Shown: piece after piece, positions 27,588-34,780 of the stretch
How the letters are laid out: each line of letters starts with the position of its first letter
Position numbering within the stretch: the first letter of the stretch is position 1
Assembly (NCBI GenBank): GCA_004431415.1
Contig: QPMI01000156.1
Span: forward strand, 1 to 34,780
Reading direction: 5' to 3'
DNA length: 34,780 nt
Origin: Cyanophora paradoxa CCMP329
Taxonomy: Eukaryota; Plantae; Glaucophyta
Notes under the pieces: generated by a model
What the model was told of the DNA's origin: nothing
Databases searched by the model: none
The model's input: the letters and a program-made list of their open reading frames with translations, nothing else
Program-made: the position numbers and the translations under genes

Positions 27588-28080
27588 GTGGTGTAATTGC
27601 CTCTCTGATCATGATATGTTCAGTCATAAAAAAATGCAGTCTTCCAGGCCGCATAGTACTGGGCTTCCACGTACCCGTGCATGGTTATGTGTATATATGA
27701 GGGCCAACAATGGGGCAAACGCGAAAAGTCAACTCCGAGAGCTCGAGACTCGGAAGTGACGCTTGGATTGCGGAGGTTCTTATAACCGCCGGGTCACAGC
27801 CGGGGGGTACCGTAGACGAGGCTGGTGATCGCCATGATCGCGACGATCGCGATGACGATTCCGATCACGACGATCGCGAAAACGAGACGATCGCGACCAT
27901 TTTCGATCGCGATTTCGGGGAGGGGGTCCATTTTGGGCCGGGGTAGAGAAAATAAATGCGAAAAGGCCGAAAAGTGCTGTTTTCACGCGTGAAATCGATC
28001 GAAAACGAGGGTTCGAATCCCGGGTCCGGATTTGGACTTGGGCAAAATCTCGAGTCAAAATGGGAGAAAAATGGGACCTA

Positions 28081-28155
28081 GGACCTTGGTGCTTGGTGCT
28101 TGGTGCTTGGTGCTTGGGGCTTGGGAAGAGTTGGAATCAGAGTCTGGACCCAAAA
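28081..28155 (+). repeat. (CTTGGTG)n heptamer array with a diverged copy of the inverted-repeat arm
   Basis: GGACCTTGGTGCTTGGTGCTTGGTGCTTGGTGCTTGGGGCTTGGGAAG...CAGAGTCTGGACCCA resembles 30130-30205. Confidence 0.85.
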
Positions 28156-28183
28156 GCGGGGAAATTTTCGGAAGGGGAGAAAA

Positions 28184-28654
28184 ATGTCAGGCAATCTCTA
28201 TTACGATTTCCCCTTTGAGTTGAATATGGCATTCGAAAGGTTGCGCGAGTTCTGGCGTTGGCACCTCACGGGACGTGACATCCCCGACATAACACCAGAG
28301 CCCGACACAGAGGGCGTGCTTGAAGTCATCAACCAATATCCGCGTCGATTCAACGAATGGATTGAGTTCCACATAACGAACCGTTTCCAGAGTCTCCCCG
28401 AGGCCGTACGCGAAAATTTCGTGAGGCTGGTGGGGCCAGGCTACGACAACCCTAACAATCATAGACCAAGCCCGGCTGGGGTGATGCGCGAAGCTCGAAG
28501 CGACCGCAGTCTTTTCCGCAGGGAATTGAGAGACGACAGACGGAGACTCTCAATGGGGCTCCCGCAGATCGTGAGGGGGTACAGCCCCGACTACGAAACT
28601 TACCAACAATTGTATGGCTTCGAAAATCCCATGGAGAGGGTACTACCAGAATGA
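28184..28654 (+). CDS. Hypothetical protein (~156 aa), orphan of the virus-like element
   Basis: MSGNLYYDFPFELNMAFERLREFWRWHL... is intronless with globular composition. The ATG is in an AAAAATG context, downstream of the TTTTCGGA motif shared with other element genes. Confidence 0.7.
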   Translation: MSGNLYYDFPFELNMAFERLREFWRWHLTGRDIPDITPEPDTEGVLEVINQYPRRFNEWIEFHITNRFQSLPEAVRENFVRLVGPGYDNPNNHRPSPAGVMREARSDRSLFRRELRDDRRRLSMGLPQIVRGYSPDYETYQQLYGFENPMERVLPE

Positions 28655-28989
28655 GAGGGGGCCCCCTGAGGGTGTACCCCCCCACCCGAGACTCGACCTT
28701 CGGCGGACGCACTCGGGCGATTTCCGTCAGGCCGGCTCCCTTTTTCTGCCTTCGGTCCAACGCTAAATTTGGCTTTTTTCAGGCCAGTTGGCAACGTTTT
28801 CCGTTGCGAACTAGACCGCGAAAAAAATCGGCAACAAAACCGCGGTCCGCCGCCATTTTGGCTCACTCTTGCAACGGGTTTCACCGCCTCCCTCAGCCCA
28901 AGGAAACCTTGCCTCTCCGAATTTTCACAAGTCCGCTCTCTCAGTCACCTCACGTTTTGCCTTTGCTGATCTCTCTTCCCTTTGCGCAG

Positions 28990-31809: not shown

Positions 31810-32487
31810 TTATCCGTAGAAGAGGATGTCGGTGCCGATGCCCGAGATGCGGGCCGCGGGCTGCACGGCGTCGGAGTCAGTGGTGTGCCTGTAGGAAACC
31901 GAGCACTCGCGCAGCTCCGCGCAGAGGCTCGCGCCCGTGCTGAAGTGGGGCTGGTCGGCGGCGTAGGAGAGGGGGAAGACCTGGAACTTGAAAAAGGTGA
32001 AGGGAAAGCGGGGTAACCCGGAAGCGCGCGGATTGCCACCAGTGTAGAGGGCCCCCAGGGTCGCGGGACTCGGGTTGAATTTTGTGAAGAGCGCGTCGCC
32101 CTTGAGCGTACCCCGCGCCGTATACGCACCCGTACCCGGTAGACTGTTGTCGGTGTACTGGTTCACGGTGGGGCCGTACCCCGTCTCCCTGAACTTTACC
32201 TCGAGACAGCGCAGGACGTTGGCCGTGGCCGTGGCAGGCGCCACCTTTTTCACGATGCCGGACTCGTGCAGCAGCTCGATTACTTCGGCGCTGAGGCTGG
32301 AAGGGTCGAAGAAGAGCTGGTAGGAGTAAATCTTGGGCGTGGCGTAGGCGTTCTGGACGACCTGAATCACGACGGGATTCTGCAGGAAGACGTCTACGTA
32401 ACTGCCGGAGGGGATGCGCGCGAAATCCTTGGTGTTGTTGCCAACGTCAAGTGAGCCGCTGAGGGTCTGGTACCAGTTGGAAGTCAT
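31810..32487 (-). CDS. Hypothetical beta-rich protein (225 aa), paralog B; candidate virion structural protein
   Basis: Intronless ORF; shares QNP, FD.S..SA, SG..KK..P, LE.KF, NPR...PR..FT.F.F and G..L.AEL.E with paralog A. Confidence 0.8.
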   Translation of the reverse strand: MTSNWYQTLSGSLDVGNNTKDFARIPSGSYVDVFLQNPVVIQVVQNAYATPKIYSYQLFFDPSSLSAEVIELLHESGIVKKVAPATATANVLRCLEVKFRETGYGPTVNQYTDNSLPGTGAYTARGTLKGDALFTKFNPSPATLGALYTGGNPRASGLPRFPFTFFKFQVFPLSYAADQPHFSTGASLCAELRECSVSYRHTTDSDAVQPAARISGIGTDILFYG

Positions 32488-32525
32488 TTACCCCGGCGCA
32501 GATATTTTTTCGGACCGTAGAGAAA

Positions 32526-34665
32526 ATGCCCCGCTTCGTTTTCGTGAGAAAGCAGGTGGTGCAGGCTCCGCAGTACGGCGTGGAGCCGATCTCGCTCACG
32601 GTGGGCAGGCCCCAGATCCGATCGGGCTCCGTGCTCGACAATGGGGGCGGTACCTATGGATTTCGAATGAACTGGGTCGCGGTCACCGACGCCATTAAGT
32701 ACAAGGTGTACAGAGGGGAAAACGTTGACGGGCCGTGGACACTTGCGAGCACGTTGAATGCGCCCACGGTCACTTACACGGACTCGCCCTTTAATTTAGG
32801 TGATTTCCGAATCTACCGAGTGACGGCTGTGCGCGAACAGAGCAGCAGCAGCACCGGATCGGATGGCAAAGCCCCGCCTACCACCTACGCGCAAACCCTT
32901 CTCTACACGCACGAGGGTGTCATGAGCAATTACATTGCCTTCCAAGGCATCCGGCCCTTTACTCCCCCAGTCGAGGCGTACACCACGCTCACGACCGCCA
33001 CGGCCCAGACCTACGGCGATTTTATCGCAGGGGGCGGCCCCGCGTCTTCCGGCTTCCCGAAACCCGCTTTGGTCGTAACCATCAACTGGGTCGCGATGGG
33101 GGGCGCGGACTCGATTCGAATTTACAGGGACGGTACCTCCATCGGATTCGCAAGCAGTGCCCTATCTACCTCGTACATTGACGATAGCACTGCCCTTACG
33201 TGGGGTACGGAGTACTCATACCAGGTGGCCGGCATCGTGGGCGGTGTCGAATACGACAAGTCCGATCCGCTCCTGGTCTGGACTATGCCAAACGCCCCCA
33301 CGAACGTGACGGCATCAGCACCCAACGACCAGCAGCAGCCTGTCAGCCTCAGCTGGACTGCGTCCACGGGAGCGACGGGATACAAGATTTACAGAGACGG
33401 GGCCTACCTCACAGACTCCGCGACCAACTCCTACAGCGACACGACCACCGTCTGGGGTACAGGGTACGAGTACCAGATCTCCGCGACGAACACGGGAGGG
33501 GAGGGGCCGAAGAGTATTGCGGCGTACGTCACCACGGACCCGGGGGCGCCCACTGGGCTCACTGCAACCCCCGCGGCGGGGCAGCACAGCCTGTTGTGCT
33601 CGAGTGGTCGGTGCCGGTGACGGGCGTCACCGTCTCCTACAACATCTACAGGGGTGGCGTGTTCCTTGCCAGCGACACGAGCAGCCCCTTTTCGGACACA
33701 ACGACCGTTTACGGAACCACTTACACTTACACCATCAAGGGCGTCAACCAGATCGGCGAGGAAGGCCCTCAGTCCTCGTCTGCCAGTGCAACAACTGCAA
33801 ACGCTCCTGTTTTGGGTACATTCTCCTACACCGGGGCCGACCAGACTTTCGTAGTACCAACGGGGACTGTGGCTGTGCGTGTCATCGTATGGGCGGCCGG
33901 GGTGGAGGCGGAGAACGCGCAGGTACGGGGGTCCGTGGAGGCGCGGGTGCTTGCGTAGTTGGTACATTGGCTGTGTCCTCGGGGGAGACGCTCATCCTTG
34001 TTGTTGGATGCGGCGGCCCAAAGGGTGTATCGGGGACTGCCACTGCTACCGTCTACGGAGGTGGAGGAAGGGGCTGGGGCCATAGCGTCGATCCGGAGTA
34101 CAAAAACGGCGCCGGTGGTGGTCGTTCTGCAATTCAGCGCGTTGCAGGGACCGACTTGGTTGTTGCAGGGGCCGGAGGTGGGGGTACATGTGATTCGAAT
34201 GGCGGCGGGGGAGTAGGCGGGGGGTTGACCGGTGGTGCGGCTGGGTTGGTTGGAGTAACCGAAGAGATACCGGCTCAAGGAGGCACCCAAACCGCTGGCG
34301 GAGCCGGTGTTGTGGCCTCAGGGGCCAGGCCCAGCAACCCGGGAACTTTGCGCCAAGGTGGAGAGCCTGGGCCTGATTCAAGCGGCTACAGGTTCGGTGG
34401 TGGTGGTGGTGGTGGTTACTTCGGTGGAGGCTCTGGGTCCAGCAGGAGCGGAGTGCCAGAGAACCCAATAGCAAGAATGTTTGGAGGTGGCGGTGGCTCG
34501 AGCTACATAGGAAACTTGACGGATGCTACGGTGTATCCTGGGTCCGGCCAGGTGGCAGGAAATAGCGGAGACGTTCACTACGCAGCAGGCATTGGTAGGG
34601 GCGGCAACGGTGGCTCGTCTTTCAGCGACGGTGGCAACGGTCGAATTGTGATACTCGCGGTGTAG
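32526..34665 (+). CDS. Fibronectin type III repeat (4x) plus glycine-rich domain protein, fibre/adhesin-like, split by two 1-nt frameshifts (~33586 and ~33900)
   Basis: FnIII motifs such as APTNVTAS..LSWTASTGATGYKIYRDG..YSDTT..YEYQISATN. These are followed by FSYTGADQTFVVPTG..VRVIVW-GGGG..LAVSSGETLILVVGCGG..GGGRSAI..LVVAGAGGG..GGGGGGYFGGG..GGGGGSSY..GGNGRIVI (polyglycine domain of the Gly_rich / ALK-LTK-like type). Confidence 0.85.
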
Positions 34666-34685
34666 TTATTCCTAGTTGTTCCAGA

Positions 34686-34780
34686 TCAGCTCGCCAGTGC
34701 CGCTATCTGGTCTTTGAGAGTTTGAACTTCTTGTGAAAGTTCCTGAATTGCCTTCAACGACAGGGAAATGAGCCTGTCGT
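34686..34780 (-). CDS. C-terminus of a tail-fibre/spike protein with an intramolecular chaperone (peptidase S74-like) coiled-coil end; partial
   Basis: The minus strand translates as DRLISLSLKAIQELSQEVQTLKDQIAALAS*, matching the typical Y..L...L.KAIQEL...V..L tail of S74 chaperone domains. Not in the supplied ORF track. Confidence 0.75.
   Translation of the reverse strand, partial: DRLISLSLKAIQELSQEVQTLKDQIAALAS

What the first reader, a model, noticed from the sequence alone, without database searches (positions are those of the whole stretch)
27588..34780. Endogenous DNA virus-like element with an unfamiliar gene set (best candidate for an undescribed system)
Seen: an abrupt change from intron-dense, very GC-rich host genes to compact intronless ORFs (11-bp overlap at 31004-31014; gaps of 23, 38 and 20 bp). 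It encodes phage-style fibre parts (FnIII + Gly-rich, S74-like chaperone end), an HNH-like protein, a paralogous orphan pair, and two proteins with eukaryotic nuclear motifs, plus its own repeat module and start-site motif. Established: S74 fibres, Gly-rich proteins and HNH genes occur in polinton-like viruses, virophages and larger eukaryotic DNA viruses. Inference: a recently integrated, nucleus-replicating virus of a eukaryote. No hallmark gene is visible here, so it may belong to a poorly described lineage.
Basis: partly seen in the sequence, partly recalled or inferred. Interest (0 to 1): 0.85.

Follow-up and report, generated by a model that had tools for sequence, protein, structure and literature searches.

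The report
Polinton-like virus end in glaucophyte alga
This is one end of a gene-dense element repeated at dozens of places in the genome of the alga Cyanophora paradoxa, and it is likely one of the integrated Polinton-like viruses already catalogued in bulk for this species, so the kind is known even though several of its genes are not.

Summary
The observation largely holds; the novelty claim mostly does not. The ORFs, 11-bp overlap, 23/38/20-bp gaps, HNH, FnIII/Gly-rich gene, S74-like tail, paralogous pair (28% identical) and repeat module are real. The element starts at 27692, not 27588, and lies 10.6 kb of repeat-rich DNA away from the intron-dense genes. Close relatives are all named Cyanophora paradoxa proteins, on at least 58 contigs with conserved order. 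Three DNA runs show roughly 55-85x single-copy depth and several different flanks at one TATATA-TG end, so it is a dispersed insertion, not a contaminant. Published tables already list 366 capsid genes and 156 complete Polinton-like viruses (PLVs) in this host, 40 with HNH_3 and 37 with S74. No capsid, ATPase, replicase or integrase lies in the window and I could not extend it, so membership is inferred (about 0.7). Weak new leads: the orphan pair models as an OB fold resembling T7/Enc34-type ssDNA-binding proteins (Z at most 4.6, no sequence support), and the HNH lacks both conserved Asn positions and ends in a Sin3-type AAxxL motif, suggesting a repressor. Verdict: undescribed family of a known kind.

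The parts
27588..27691 (.). Host-side flank, not part of the repeated element (about two copies)
   Evidence: Summed depth 57-690 here against 3,860-12,353 from 27692; one exact and one variant contig cover it
27692..27697 (.). TATATA at the element end: candidate target site or outermost bases of the terminus
   Evidence: Other flanks join at 27691-27692 in all 3 runs (table 7; joint 24166>27692); right end not available, so TSD untested
27698..27793 (.). Conserved terminal segment starting TG; candidate terminal inverted repeat
   Evidence: Highest summed depth of the 481-bp stretch in 3 of 3 runs; matching right end not seen
28078..28152 (+). Repeat module copy 1 (CTTGGTG array plus tail), 32 bp before ORF156
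28184..28654 (+). 156-aa orphan ORF
   Evidence: No Pfam/PHROG hit; no relative in viral contigs; not searched in the large protein collection except by exact look-up (absent)
28966..28989 (+). Pyrimidine tract and GCAG just before the ORF355 start: possible 5'-UTR intron acceptor
   Evidence: Sequence only; untested
28990..30057 (+). 355-aa protein: variable N-terminus, acidic/Ser stretch, RKRR, coiled coil, C-terminal [IL][DE]LVSDD (NLS-like and SUMO-binding-like by recall)
   Evidence: 27 clusters, all C. paradoxa or the window itself; RKRR in 52 of 54 and the acidic motif in 49 of 54 family proteins
30127..30201 (+). Repeat module copy 2
   Evidence: 85% identical to copy 1
30386..30473 (+). 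Two 44-bp A-rich direct repeats between the inverted module copies
   Evidence: D18, 84%
30532..30606 (-). Repeat module copy 3, inverted against copy 2, about 40 bp before the HNH start
30649..31014 (+). 121-aa HNH_3 protein, likely nuclease-dead, with C-terminal AAxxL motif
   Evidence: Pfam E 2.8e-8; in a weak alignment to I-HmuI (E 0.14) His is kept and both Asn positions read Tyr and Ile; same in 3 of 3 family representatives, which end MMEAAQALVQL
31004..31786 (-). 260-aa orphan, paralogue A; predicted OB-fold-like by homology to paralogue B
   Evidence: its own model was unusable (pLDDT 36.6)
31810..32487 (-). 225-aa orphan, paralogue B; predicted OB-like fold
   Evidence: AF2 pLDDT 69.6, pTM 0.77; best fold matches Enc34 SSB Z 4.6 (rmsd 4.2, 126 aligned) and T7 gp2.5 Z 4.1; none significant
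32526..34665 (+). FnIII-repeat plus ALK/LTK-type Gly-rich protein (about 710 codons), split by two frameshifts in this assembly; likely virion surface or fibre protein
   Evidence: extra base in contigs at 33577 and 33898
34686..34780 (-). Last 30 codons and stop of a gene cut by the window end; resembles the C-terminal chaperone coil of tail fibres
   Evidence: 6 of 8 PHROG hits are C-termini of tail, spike or baseplate profiles, best E 0.005

Best explanation
This is the first 7.1 kb of a high-copy element inserted at many TA-rich sites in the Cyanophora paradoxa genome, and it is likely an endogenous Polinton-like virus whose capsid, packaging, replication and integration genes would lie beyond the window. 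Shown: one shared end at 27692 with different flanks, dozens of copies with conserved gene order, lower GC than host genes, dense ORFs. Inferred mechanism: an element-encoded integrase, most likely rve-type given the TG start and a possible 6-bp TATATA target, inserts the linear genome. Host RNA polymerase II would transcribe it from the CTTGGTG modules, two of which sit just upstream of a gene. The terminal genes would be regulators: a likely nuclease-dead HNH protein that binds DNA and recruits a Sin3/HDAC corepressor through AAxxL, and a nuclear acidic/coiled-coil protein. The paralogous pair would act as ssDNA-binding replication helpers. The FnIII/Gly-rich and S74-type proteins would be the attachment fibres of a virion that enters cells by itself. 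Most copies are probably silent.
For: Host and copy number: 12 of 14 clusters hit by the 260-aa protein, 26 of 27 hit by ORF355 (the other is the window's own) and 3 of 3 hit by the HNH are C. paradoxa gene models. Named copies lie on 58 contigs; on 37 of the 37 contigs with both ORF355 and a pair gene these are within 3 gene numbers, and HNH models fall between them on 3 of 3 contigs named. Depth of one element contig over single-copy host contigs is 61, 84 and 54 in three DNA runs (rough). Depth jumps at 27692, other flanks join there, and an exact contig at single-copy depth joins this flank to the end in 3 of 3 runs. Literature: 366 MCP genes in two new clusters in this genome (PMC10120064 Table S4); 156 complete glaucophyte PLVs, with A32 ATPase in 139, rve in 85, HNH_3 in 40, S74 in 37 (PMC12220804 Table S6); S74 fibres are common in PLVs. 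AAxxL binds Sin3A in flies (PMC9890238). Viral genes are enriched in the methylated, silent fraction of this genome (PMC12344493).
Against: No MCP, A32 ATPase, polymerase/helicase or integrase was seen, and no link from this family to a capsid gene could be made: none of the 6 capsid-bearing contigs named in PMC10120064 Table S2 is among my 58 (those 6 are only examples out of 366 hits, so this is weak). The junction contigs reach 30 bases into the element, one short of the tool's 31-base rule for a bridge, and are short-read contigs. TIR and TSD are untested. The pair does not look like a jelly-roll minor capsid, and its OB-fold match is at background level (no Foldseek hit at E<=0.001, Z<5), with no profile support (probability 0.1%) and no acidic tail. 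T7-type SSBs are reported from nucleocytoviruses and mriyaviruses, which favours rival 1 if the fold is right. AAxxL is a short, poorly conserved motif by that paper's own account.
Confidence: 0.72

Rival explanations
1. The element is a mid-size relative of nucleocytoviruses (mriyavirus-like or dwarf giant virus, or repeated pieces of a giant endogenous virus) and not a typical PLV.
For: Top fold matches of the pair are T7/Enc34-type SSBs and uncharacterised giant-virus proteins; such SSBs are reported in gamadviruses and nucleocytoviruses; the six C. paradoxa MCPs in PMC10120064 Table S2 match ascovirus, iridovirus and algal giant-virus capsids best; GEVEs are reported in this species.
Against: The fold match is not significant. 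At least 58 dispersed copies sharing one sharp end suit an integrase-driven element; the mriyavirus paper has 0 occurrences of 'endogen' or 'integrat'. No nucleocytovirus core gene is in the window.
Confidence: 0.13
2. The element is a capsid-less mobile element (transpoviron-like, or a non-autonomous derivative of a PLV) that carries fibre and regulatory genes and is mobilised in trans.
For: No capsid gene seen; no overlap with the 6 named MCP contigs; a preprint notes transpoviron-like elements on one contig of this assembly (10.64898/2026.10.13.758929); one single-copy 8-kb contig holds only 61 bp of the end, so deleted derivatives exist.
Against: Fibre-type genes with open frames in most copies make more sense with a capsid; 40 HNH_3- and 37 S74-bearing elements are in a set of complete PLVs for this host.
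Confidence: 0.12
3. Assembly chimera, or bacterial/prophage contamination.
For: HNH, FnIII and tail-fibre-like domains are phage-type; junction support is from short contigs only.
Against: Relatives are C. paradoxa models on 58 contigs; many host flanks share one end; no relative in GTDB genomes, annotated phages, IMG/VR or JGI metagenomes; 14 DNA-type runs of one organism hold 0.42-0.47 of the words.
Confidence: 0.03

Closest known systems
Endogenous Polinton-like viruses of Cyanophora paradoxa (MCP clusters 21 and 29 by my column count in PMC10120064 Table S4; 156 complete elements in PMC12220804 Table S6)
   Same: Same host, high copy number, lower GC than host genes, HNH_3 and S74-type genes among the tabulated contents
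   Different: This family's link to either capsid cluster is not shown; its orphan pair, ORF355, ORF156, FnIII/Gly-rich gene and repeat module are not described in the passages and tables I could read
PLVs with phage-like fibres (cryptophyte, Paulinella and Gezel-14T types, PMC12220804)
   Same: Chaperone-tailed fibre genes and modular attachment proteins
   Different: 'fibronectin', 'fn3', 'glycine-rich' and 'ALK' occur 0 times in that paper's main text; the HNH here looks inactive rather than a homing nuclease
Mriyaviruses (Gamadviridae) and other small nucleocytovirus relatives (PMC11253617)
   Same: T7-type OB-fold SSB (predicted there; weakly predicted here); 35-45 kb genomes
   Different: No HUH, VLTF2/3 or RuvC seen in 7.1 kb; not described as integrating; here two paralogues
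Maverick/Polinton elements
   Same: Dispersed insertions with a fixed end and possible 6-bp target duplication
   Different: pPolB and rve integrase not visible; TIR and TSD untested

Membership tests
Polinton-like virus | Double-jelly-roll major capsid protein | not testable with these tools
   Window ends 7.1 kb into the element; no genome held; Table S5 rows for this assembly are not in the stored supplement
Polinton-like virus | A32 packaging ATPase | not testable with these tools
   Not in the window; downstream sequence unavailable
Polinton-like virus | Single-jelly-roll minor capsid protein | tested here: inconclusive
   The orphan pair was the candidate; its model gave OB-like, not jelly-roll, top matches, all weak; an mCP may lie downstream
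Polinton-like virus | Replicase (pPolB, primase-helicase or S1H) and integrase (rve or YR) | not testable with these tools
   Not in the window
Polinton-like virus | Terminal inverted repeats and 14-40 kb length | tested here: inconclusive
   One conserved end found at 27692; the other end is outside the window
Polinton-like virus | Target-site duplication of 5-6 bp (rve-type members) | tested here: inconclusive
   TATATA precedes TG at this end and other flanks join at the same place; terminus and target cannot be told apart without the right end
Polinton-like virus | Multi-copy integration in a protist nuclear genome with GC offset | tested here: met
   58 contigs, conserved order; several flanks; GC 58% against 76% in host genes
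Polinton-like virus | Accessory fibre (S74) and HNH genes (common, not defining) | tested here: inconclusive
   HNH_3 met; S74 only from 30 residues, E 0.005 in PHROGs, no Pfam S74 hit
Mriyaviricetes / dwarf nucleocytovirus relatives | NCLDV-type MCP, ATPase, VLTF2, VLTF3, HUH, RuvC | not testable with these tools
   None in the window; downstream unavailable
T7 gp2.5 / Enc34 / NCLDV ssDNA-binding proteins (orphan pair) | OB fold with capping helix | tested here: inconclusive
   Top-ranked in 4 of 4 fold searches but Z 4.6 at best and E above 0.001; profile comparisons negative
T7 gp2.5 / Enc34 / NCLDV ssDNA-binding proteins (orphan pair) | Acidic C-terminal tail (feature recalled for gp2.5 and Enc34) | tested here: not met
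   3 acidic residues in the last 25 of each paralogue
Active HNH homing endonuclease (I-HmuI type) | His plus conserved Asn and metal-binding Asn/His | tested here: not met
   His kept; Asn positions read Tyr and Ile in a weak alignment and in 3 of 3 relatives; residue roles recalled
Giant endogenous viral element | Very long region with nucleocytovirus core genes | not testable with these tools
   No core gene in 7.1 kb; length unknown
Prophage or bacterial contaminant | Relatives in prokaryote or phage genomes, no host junctions | tested here: not met

The most novel reading that the evidence does not exclude
This is a distinct lineage of mid-size integrating viruses between PLVs and nucleocytoviruses: a giant-virus-like capsid, a D5-type primase-helicase, a duplicated T7/NCLDV-type ssDNA-binding protein, insertion at TATATA by an unrecognised integrase, and self-imposed latency through a dead HNH nuclease that recruits host Sin3/HDAC. 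In the published counts for this host, HNH_3 (40), S74 (37) and D5 (38-40) are nearly equal, rve (85) is close to pPolB (49) plus S1H (34), and YR is 0, which leaves room for an HNH/S74/D5 family without a known integrase. That co-occurrence is my inference from totals only.
Probability: 0.12. Interest if true: 0.72.

Novelty: new member of a known kind. Interest (0 to 1): 0.33.

Why it matters
As a kind it is known: integrated PLVs are estimated at about 7% of this alga's genome (PMC10120064 Table S4). The value is narrower. The host is a culturable, sequenced glaucophyte with a published methylome, and this family seems never to have been described gene by gene. Two leads are testable: a likely virus-encoded repressor built from a dead HNH plus a Sin3-type motif, which would bear on how endogenous DNA viruses stay latent, and a duplicated OB-fold-like protein family found outside this species only on four short unnamed contigs. 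If the family also lacks a known integrase, it would point to an unknown way of integrating.

Tried and rejected
No whole genome was held, so the contig could not be extended. The 84-bp direct repeat at 18098-18181 and 27504-27587 was considered as LTR or long TSD and rejected: it is a dispersed low-copy repeat with further variants and ends 104 bp before the element. The 468-aa ORF from 28651 was rejected in favour of the 355-aa start: all family proteins inspected begin there and contigs lack one base at 28677. Minor-capsid idea for the pair: no jelly-roll among the listed fold matches, which does not exclude it. First AF2 model unusable. Pfam, PHROG and PDB sequence searches of the pair were blank. 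Profile comparison with T7 gp2.5, Enc34 SSB and a 10-sequence Enc34-family alignment was blank. Scans for relatives with genomic context were blank in IMG/VR (7 scans with element queries), JGI metagenomes, GTDB and phages; these scans need short exact patterns and miss distant relatives. The 1.84-billion-protein profile search gave 12 hits: 9 C. paradoxa, 2 unnamed Logan contigs at 38-44% to paralogue B, 1 spurious repeat protein. In some searches the S74 piece was given in the wrong frame; replace those rows. Expression: no RNA holder listed; one run guessed to be RNA has low-depth contigs on parts of the element, which DNA carry-over from a 60-copy repeat could explain, so no conclusion. 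ESM Atlas gave no answer. No complex prediction for the pair was obtained. Earlier findings of this scan: none.
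Full report
OBSERVATION. The overlap is 11 bp and the gaps are 23, 38 and 20 bp; from 30649 onward 98% is coding. Pfam gives HNH_3 (E 2.8e-8), fn3 (1e-6) and ALK/LTK Gly-rich domain (4.5e-10). The 30-residue tail matches C-termini of phage tail-fibre and spike profiles at E 0.005-0.08 (6 of 8 PHROG hits) and no Pfam S74 model. 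The two orphans are paralogues (28% over 193 aa; profile probability 98%). A 75-bp module with CTTGG(T/G)G arrays occurs three times. AAA precedes 4 of 6 starts against 11 of 139 ATGs.

CORRECTIONS. The element begins at 27692. In three DNA runs, summed contig depth goes from 439, 68 and 63 in 27675-27691 to 12,353, 4,110 and 3,860 in 27692-27708, and contigs with other flanks join at 27691-27692 in all three. A further flank appears as a joint. The step from host genes is not abrupt: GC is 76.5%, then 64.1% over 10.6 kb of repeat-rich DNA, then 58.2%. The two frameshifts in the FnIII/Gly-rich gene sit at G runs where contigs of all four runs laid have one more base, so they are probably assembly errors.

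HOST AND COPY NUMBER. Relatives of the 260-aa protein (12 of 14 clusters), ORF355 (26 of 27, the other being the window's own) and the HNH (3 of 3) are EukProt Cyanophora paradoxa models. Named copies sit on 58 contigs, a lower bound because identical sequences show one name. On all 37 contigs with both ORF355 and a pair gene, they are within 3 gene numbers. Depth of one element contig against single-copy host contigs is 61, 84 and 54; the tool warns that such depths are not copy numbers, so this is rough agreement only. Identities run from 50 to 97%, with several subtypes, and many models are truncated or fused. Outside this species the pair family appears only on four short unnamed ENA/Logan contigs. 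Nothing was found in GTDB, annotated phages, IMG/VR or JGI metagenomes.

WHAT IS IN PRINT. PMC10120064 (passages, section 6 and rows of Tables S1, S2, S4; the stored file is cut, and Table S5 rows for this assembly were not seen) lists 366 MCP genes in C. paradoxa in two new clusters, 272 and 94, an estimated 7.3 Mb, and six example MCPs whose best HHpred matches are ascovirus, iridovirus and algal giant-virus capsids. PMC12220804 (passages, sections 10 and 13 part 1, rows of Tables S6, S11, S12) counts 156 glaucophyte PLVs, with A32 ATPase in 139, rve in 85, YR in 0, pPolB in 49, D5-type in 38-40, S1H in 34, HNH_3 in 40 and S74 in 37; its Fig. 3 legend says only TIR-bounded elements were included. 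PMC12344493 (abstract, passages, section 9) reports methylated, silent viral genes and GEVEs in this alga. PMC8502044 (passages) notes adintovirus-like relatives in its contigs. A preprint (10.64898/2026.10.13.758929, passages; supplements not seen) mentions one composite element of this assembly. The genome paper PMC6704402 (passages) has 0 occurrences of 'virus'.5% of the genome unknown repeats. Six searches naming Cyanophora with polinton, mirusvirus, capsid or GEVE terms found no gene-level description of this family; the library lacks most subscription papers, and unseen supplements may hold it.

HOW IT LIKELY WORKS. Shown: a fixed end, many insertion sites, a conserved gene block. Inferred: an integrating linear dsDNA virus of the PLV kind, 15-40 kb, whose core genes lie to the right. 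The end reads TATATA then TG; if TATATA is the target, a 6-bp duplication and TG start fit an rve-type integrase (6-bp TSD; TG end recalled), but TATATA could be part of the terminus. Two of the three CTTGGTG modules lie 30-45 bp before a start codon, which suggests promoters (untested). The HNH keeps its His but has Tyr and Ile where I-HmuI has two Asn (weak alignment; residue roles recalled), and this holds in 3 of 3 relatives, which end in MMEAAQALVQL. AAxxL motifs recruit Sin3A in flies, though the motif is short and loosely conserved (PMC9890238, passages). I therefore read it as a likely DNA-binding repressor (about 0.4). ORF355 keeps RKRR in 52 of 54 and an acidic hydrophobic C-terminal motif in 49 of 54 family proteins; the NLS and SUMO-binding labels are recalled. 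The FnIII/Gly-rich and chaperone-tailed proteins are likely attachment fibres.

THE ORPHAN PAIR. With a 17-sequence alignment the 225-aa paralogue folded at pLDDT 69.6 and pTM 0.77. In the PDB searches the top ranks were Enc34 SSB and T7 gp2.5 (best Z 4.6, rmsd 4.2 over 126 residues), and in the viral library unnamed proteins, phage SSB-domain proteins and uncharacterised giant-virus proteins (best E 1.2e-3). None is significant, Z under 8 may reflect only a common arrangement, profile comparisons were blank and there is no acidic tail. An OB-like fold is a fair lead (about 0.55) and an SSB role a weaker one (about 0.35). T7-type SSBs are reported in gamadviruses and other nucleocytovirus relatives (PMC11253617 and 10.64898/2026.08.29.747986, passages), which keeps the rival of a small giant-virus relative open.

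MEMBERSHIP. It works like an integrated PLV in what I could test (multi-copy insertion, fixed end, GC offset, accessory genes). The defining genes, TIR pair and TSD could not be tested, and none of the six MCP contigs named in print is among my 58 (weak, as they are 6 examples of 366). I file it as a probable PLV (0.72), with a small nucleocytovirus relative (0.13), a capsid-less element (0.12) and an artefact (0.03) as rivals.

VERDICT. Real, endogenous, high-copy and virus-like, in a host where such elements are already catalogued by the hundred. New member of a known kind; interest 0.33. The bolder reading, a distinct lineage with no known integrase and a self-silencing switch, has probability about 0.12 and would deserve about 0.72.

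Noticed in passing
window 19962-20068 and 24233-24339: 107-bp inverted repeats, 95% complementary, 4.2 kb apart, enclosing tandem repeats and an intron-bearing FtsJ/TlyA-like methyltransferase fragment (22691-22918 minus, Pfam FtsJ E 7.7e-7): looks like a gene-capturing DNA transposon
   Followed up: partly
window 18098-18181 and 27504-27587: 84-bp direct repeat (99%) 9.4 kb apart; a low-copy dispersed repeat with further variants in the reads
   Followed up: yes
window 18573-19303: High-depth 729-bp segment; contigs at single-copy depth in 3 runs skip it, suggesting a small mobile insertion with an empty site or allele
   Followed up: no
window 24400-27500: Repeat of about 10-25x depth with an internal 300-bp duplication (25539-25838, 26109-26408, 88%); covered by contigs of a run guessed to be RNA
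   Followed up: no
window 8207-8898: Host ALG13-like glycosyltransferase gene (Pfam Glyco_tran_28_C E 5e-12); its second short intron appears to start with GC, and many host introns here look GC-AG and full of GGGCG/CGCCC repeats
   Followed up: partly
single-copy 8-kb contig in runs X1, X2, X12 matching window 27692-27752: A 61-bp remnant of the element end, followed by TATATATC in run X1: a deleted derivative or footprint at another locus
   Followed up: no
P0007, P0008, P0115, P0116: Four proteins from short unnamed ENA/Logan contigs are the only relatives of the orphan pair outside C. paradoxa (60-63% to paralogue A; 38-44% to paralogue B), so related elements exist elsewhere
   Followed up: partly
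ORF355 family (P0056-P0109): The first 70 or so residues come in at least three unrelated versions while the rest is conserved, suggesting domain swapping or fast divergence at the N-terminus
   Followed up: no
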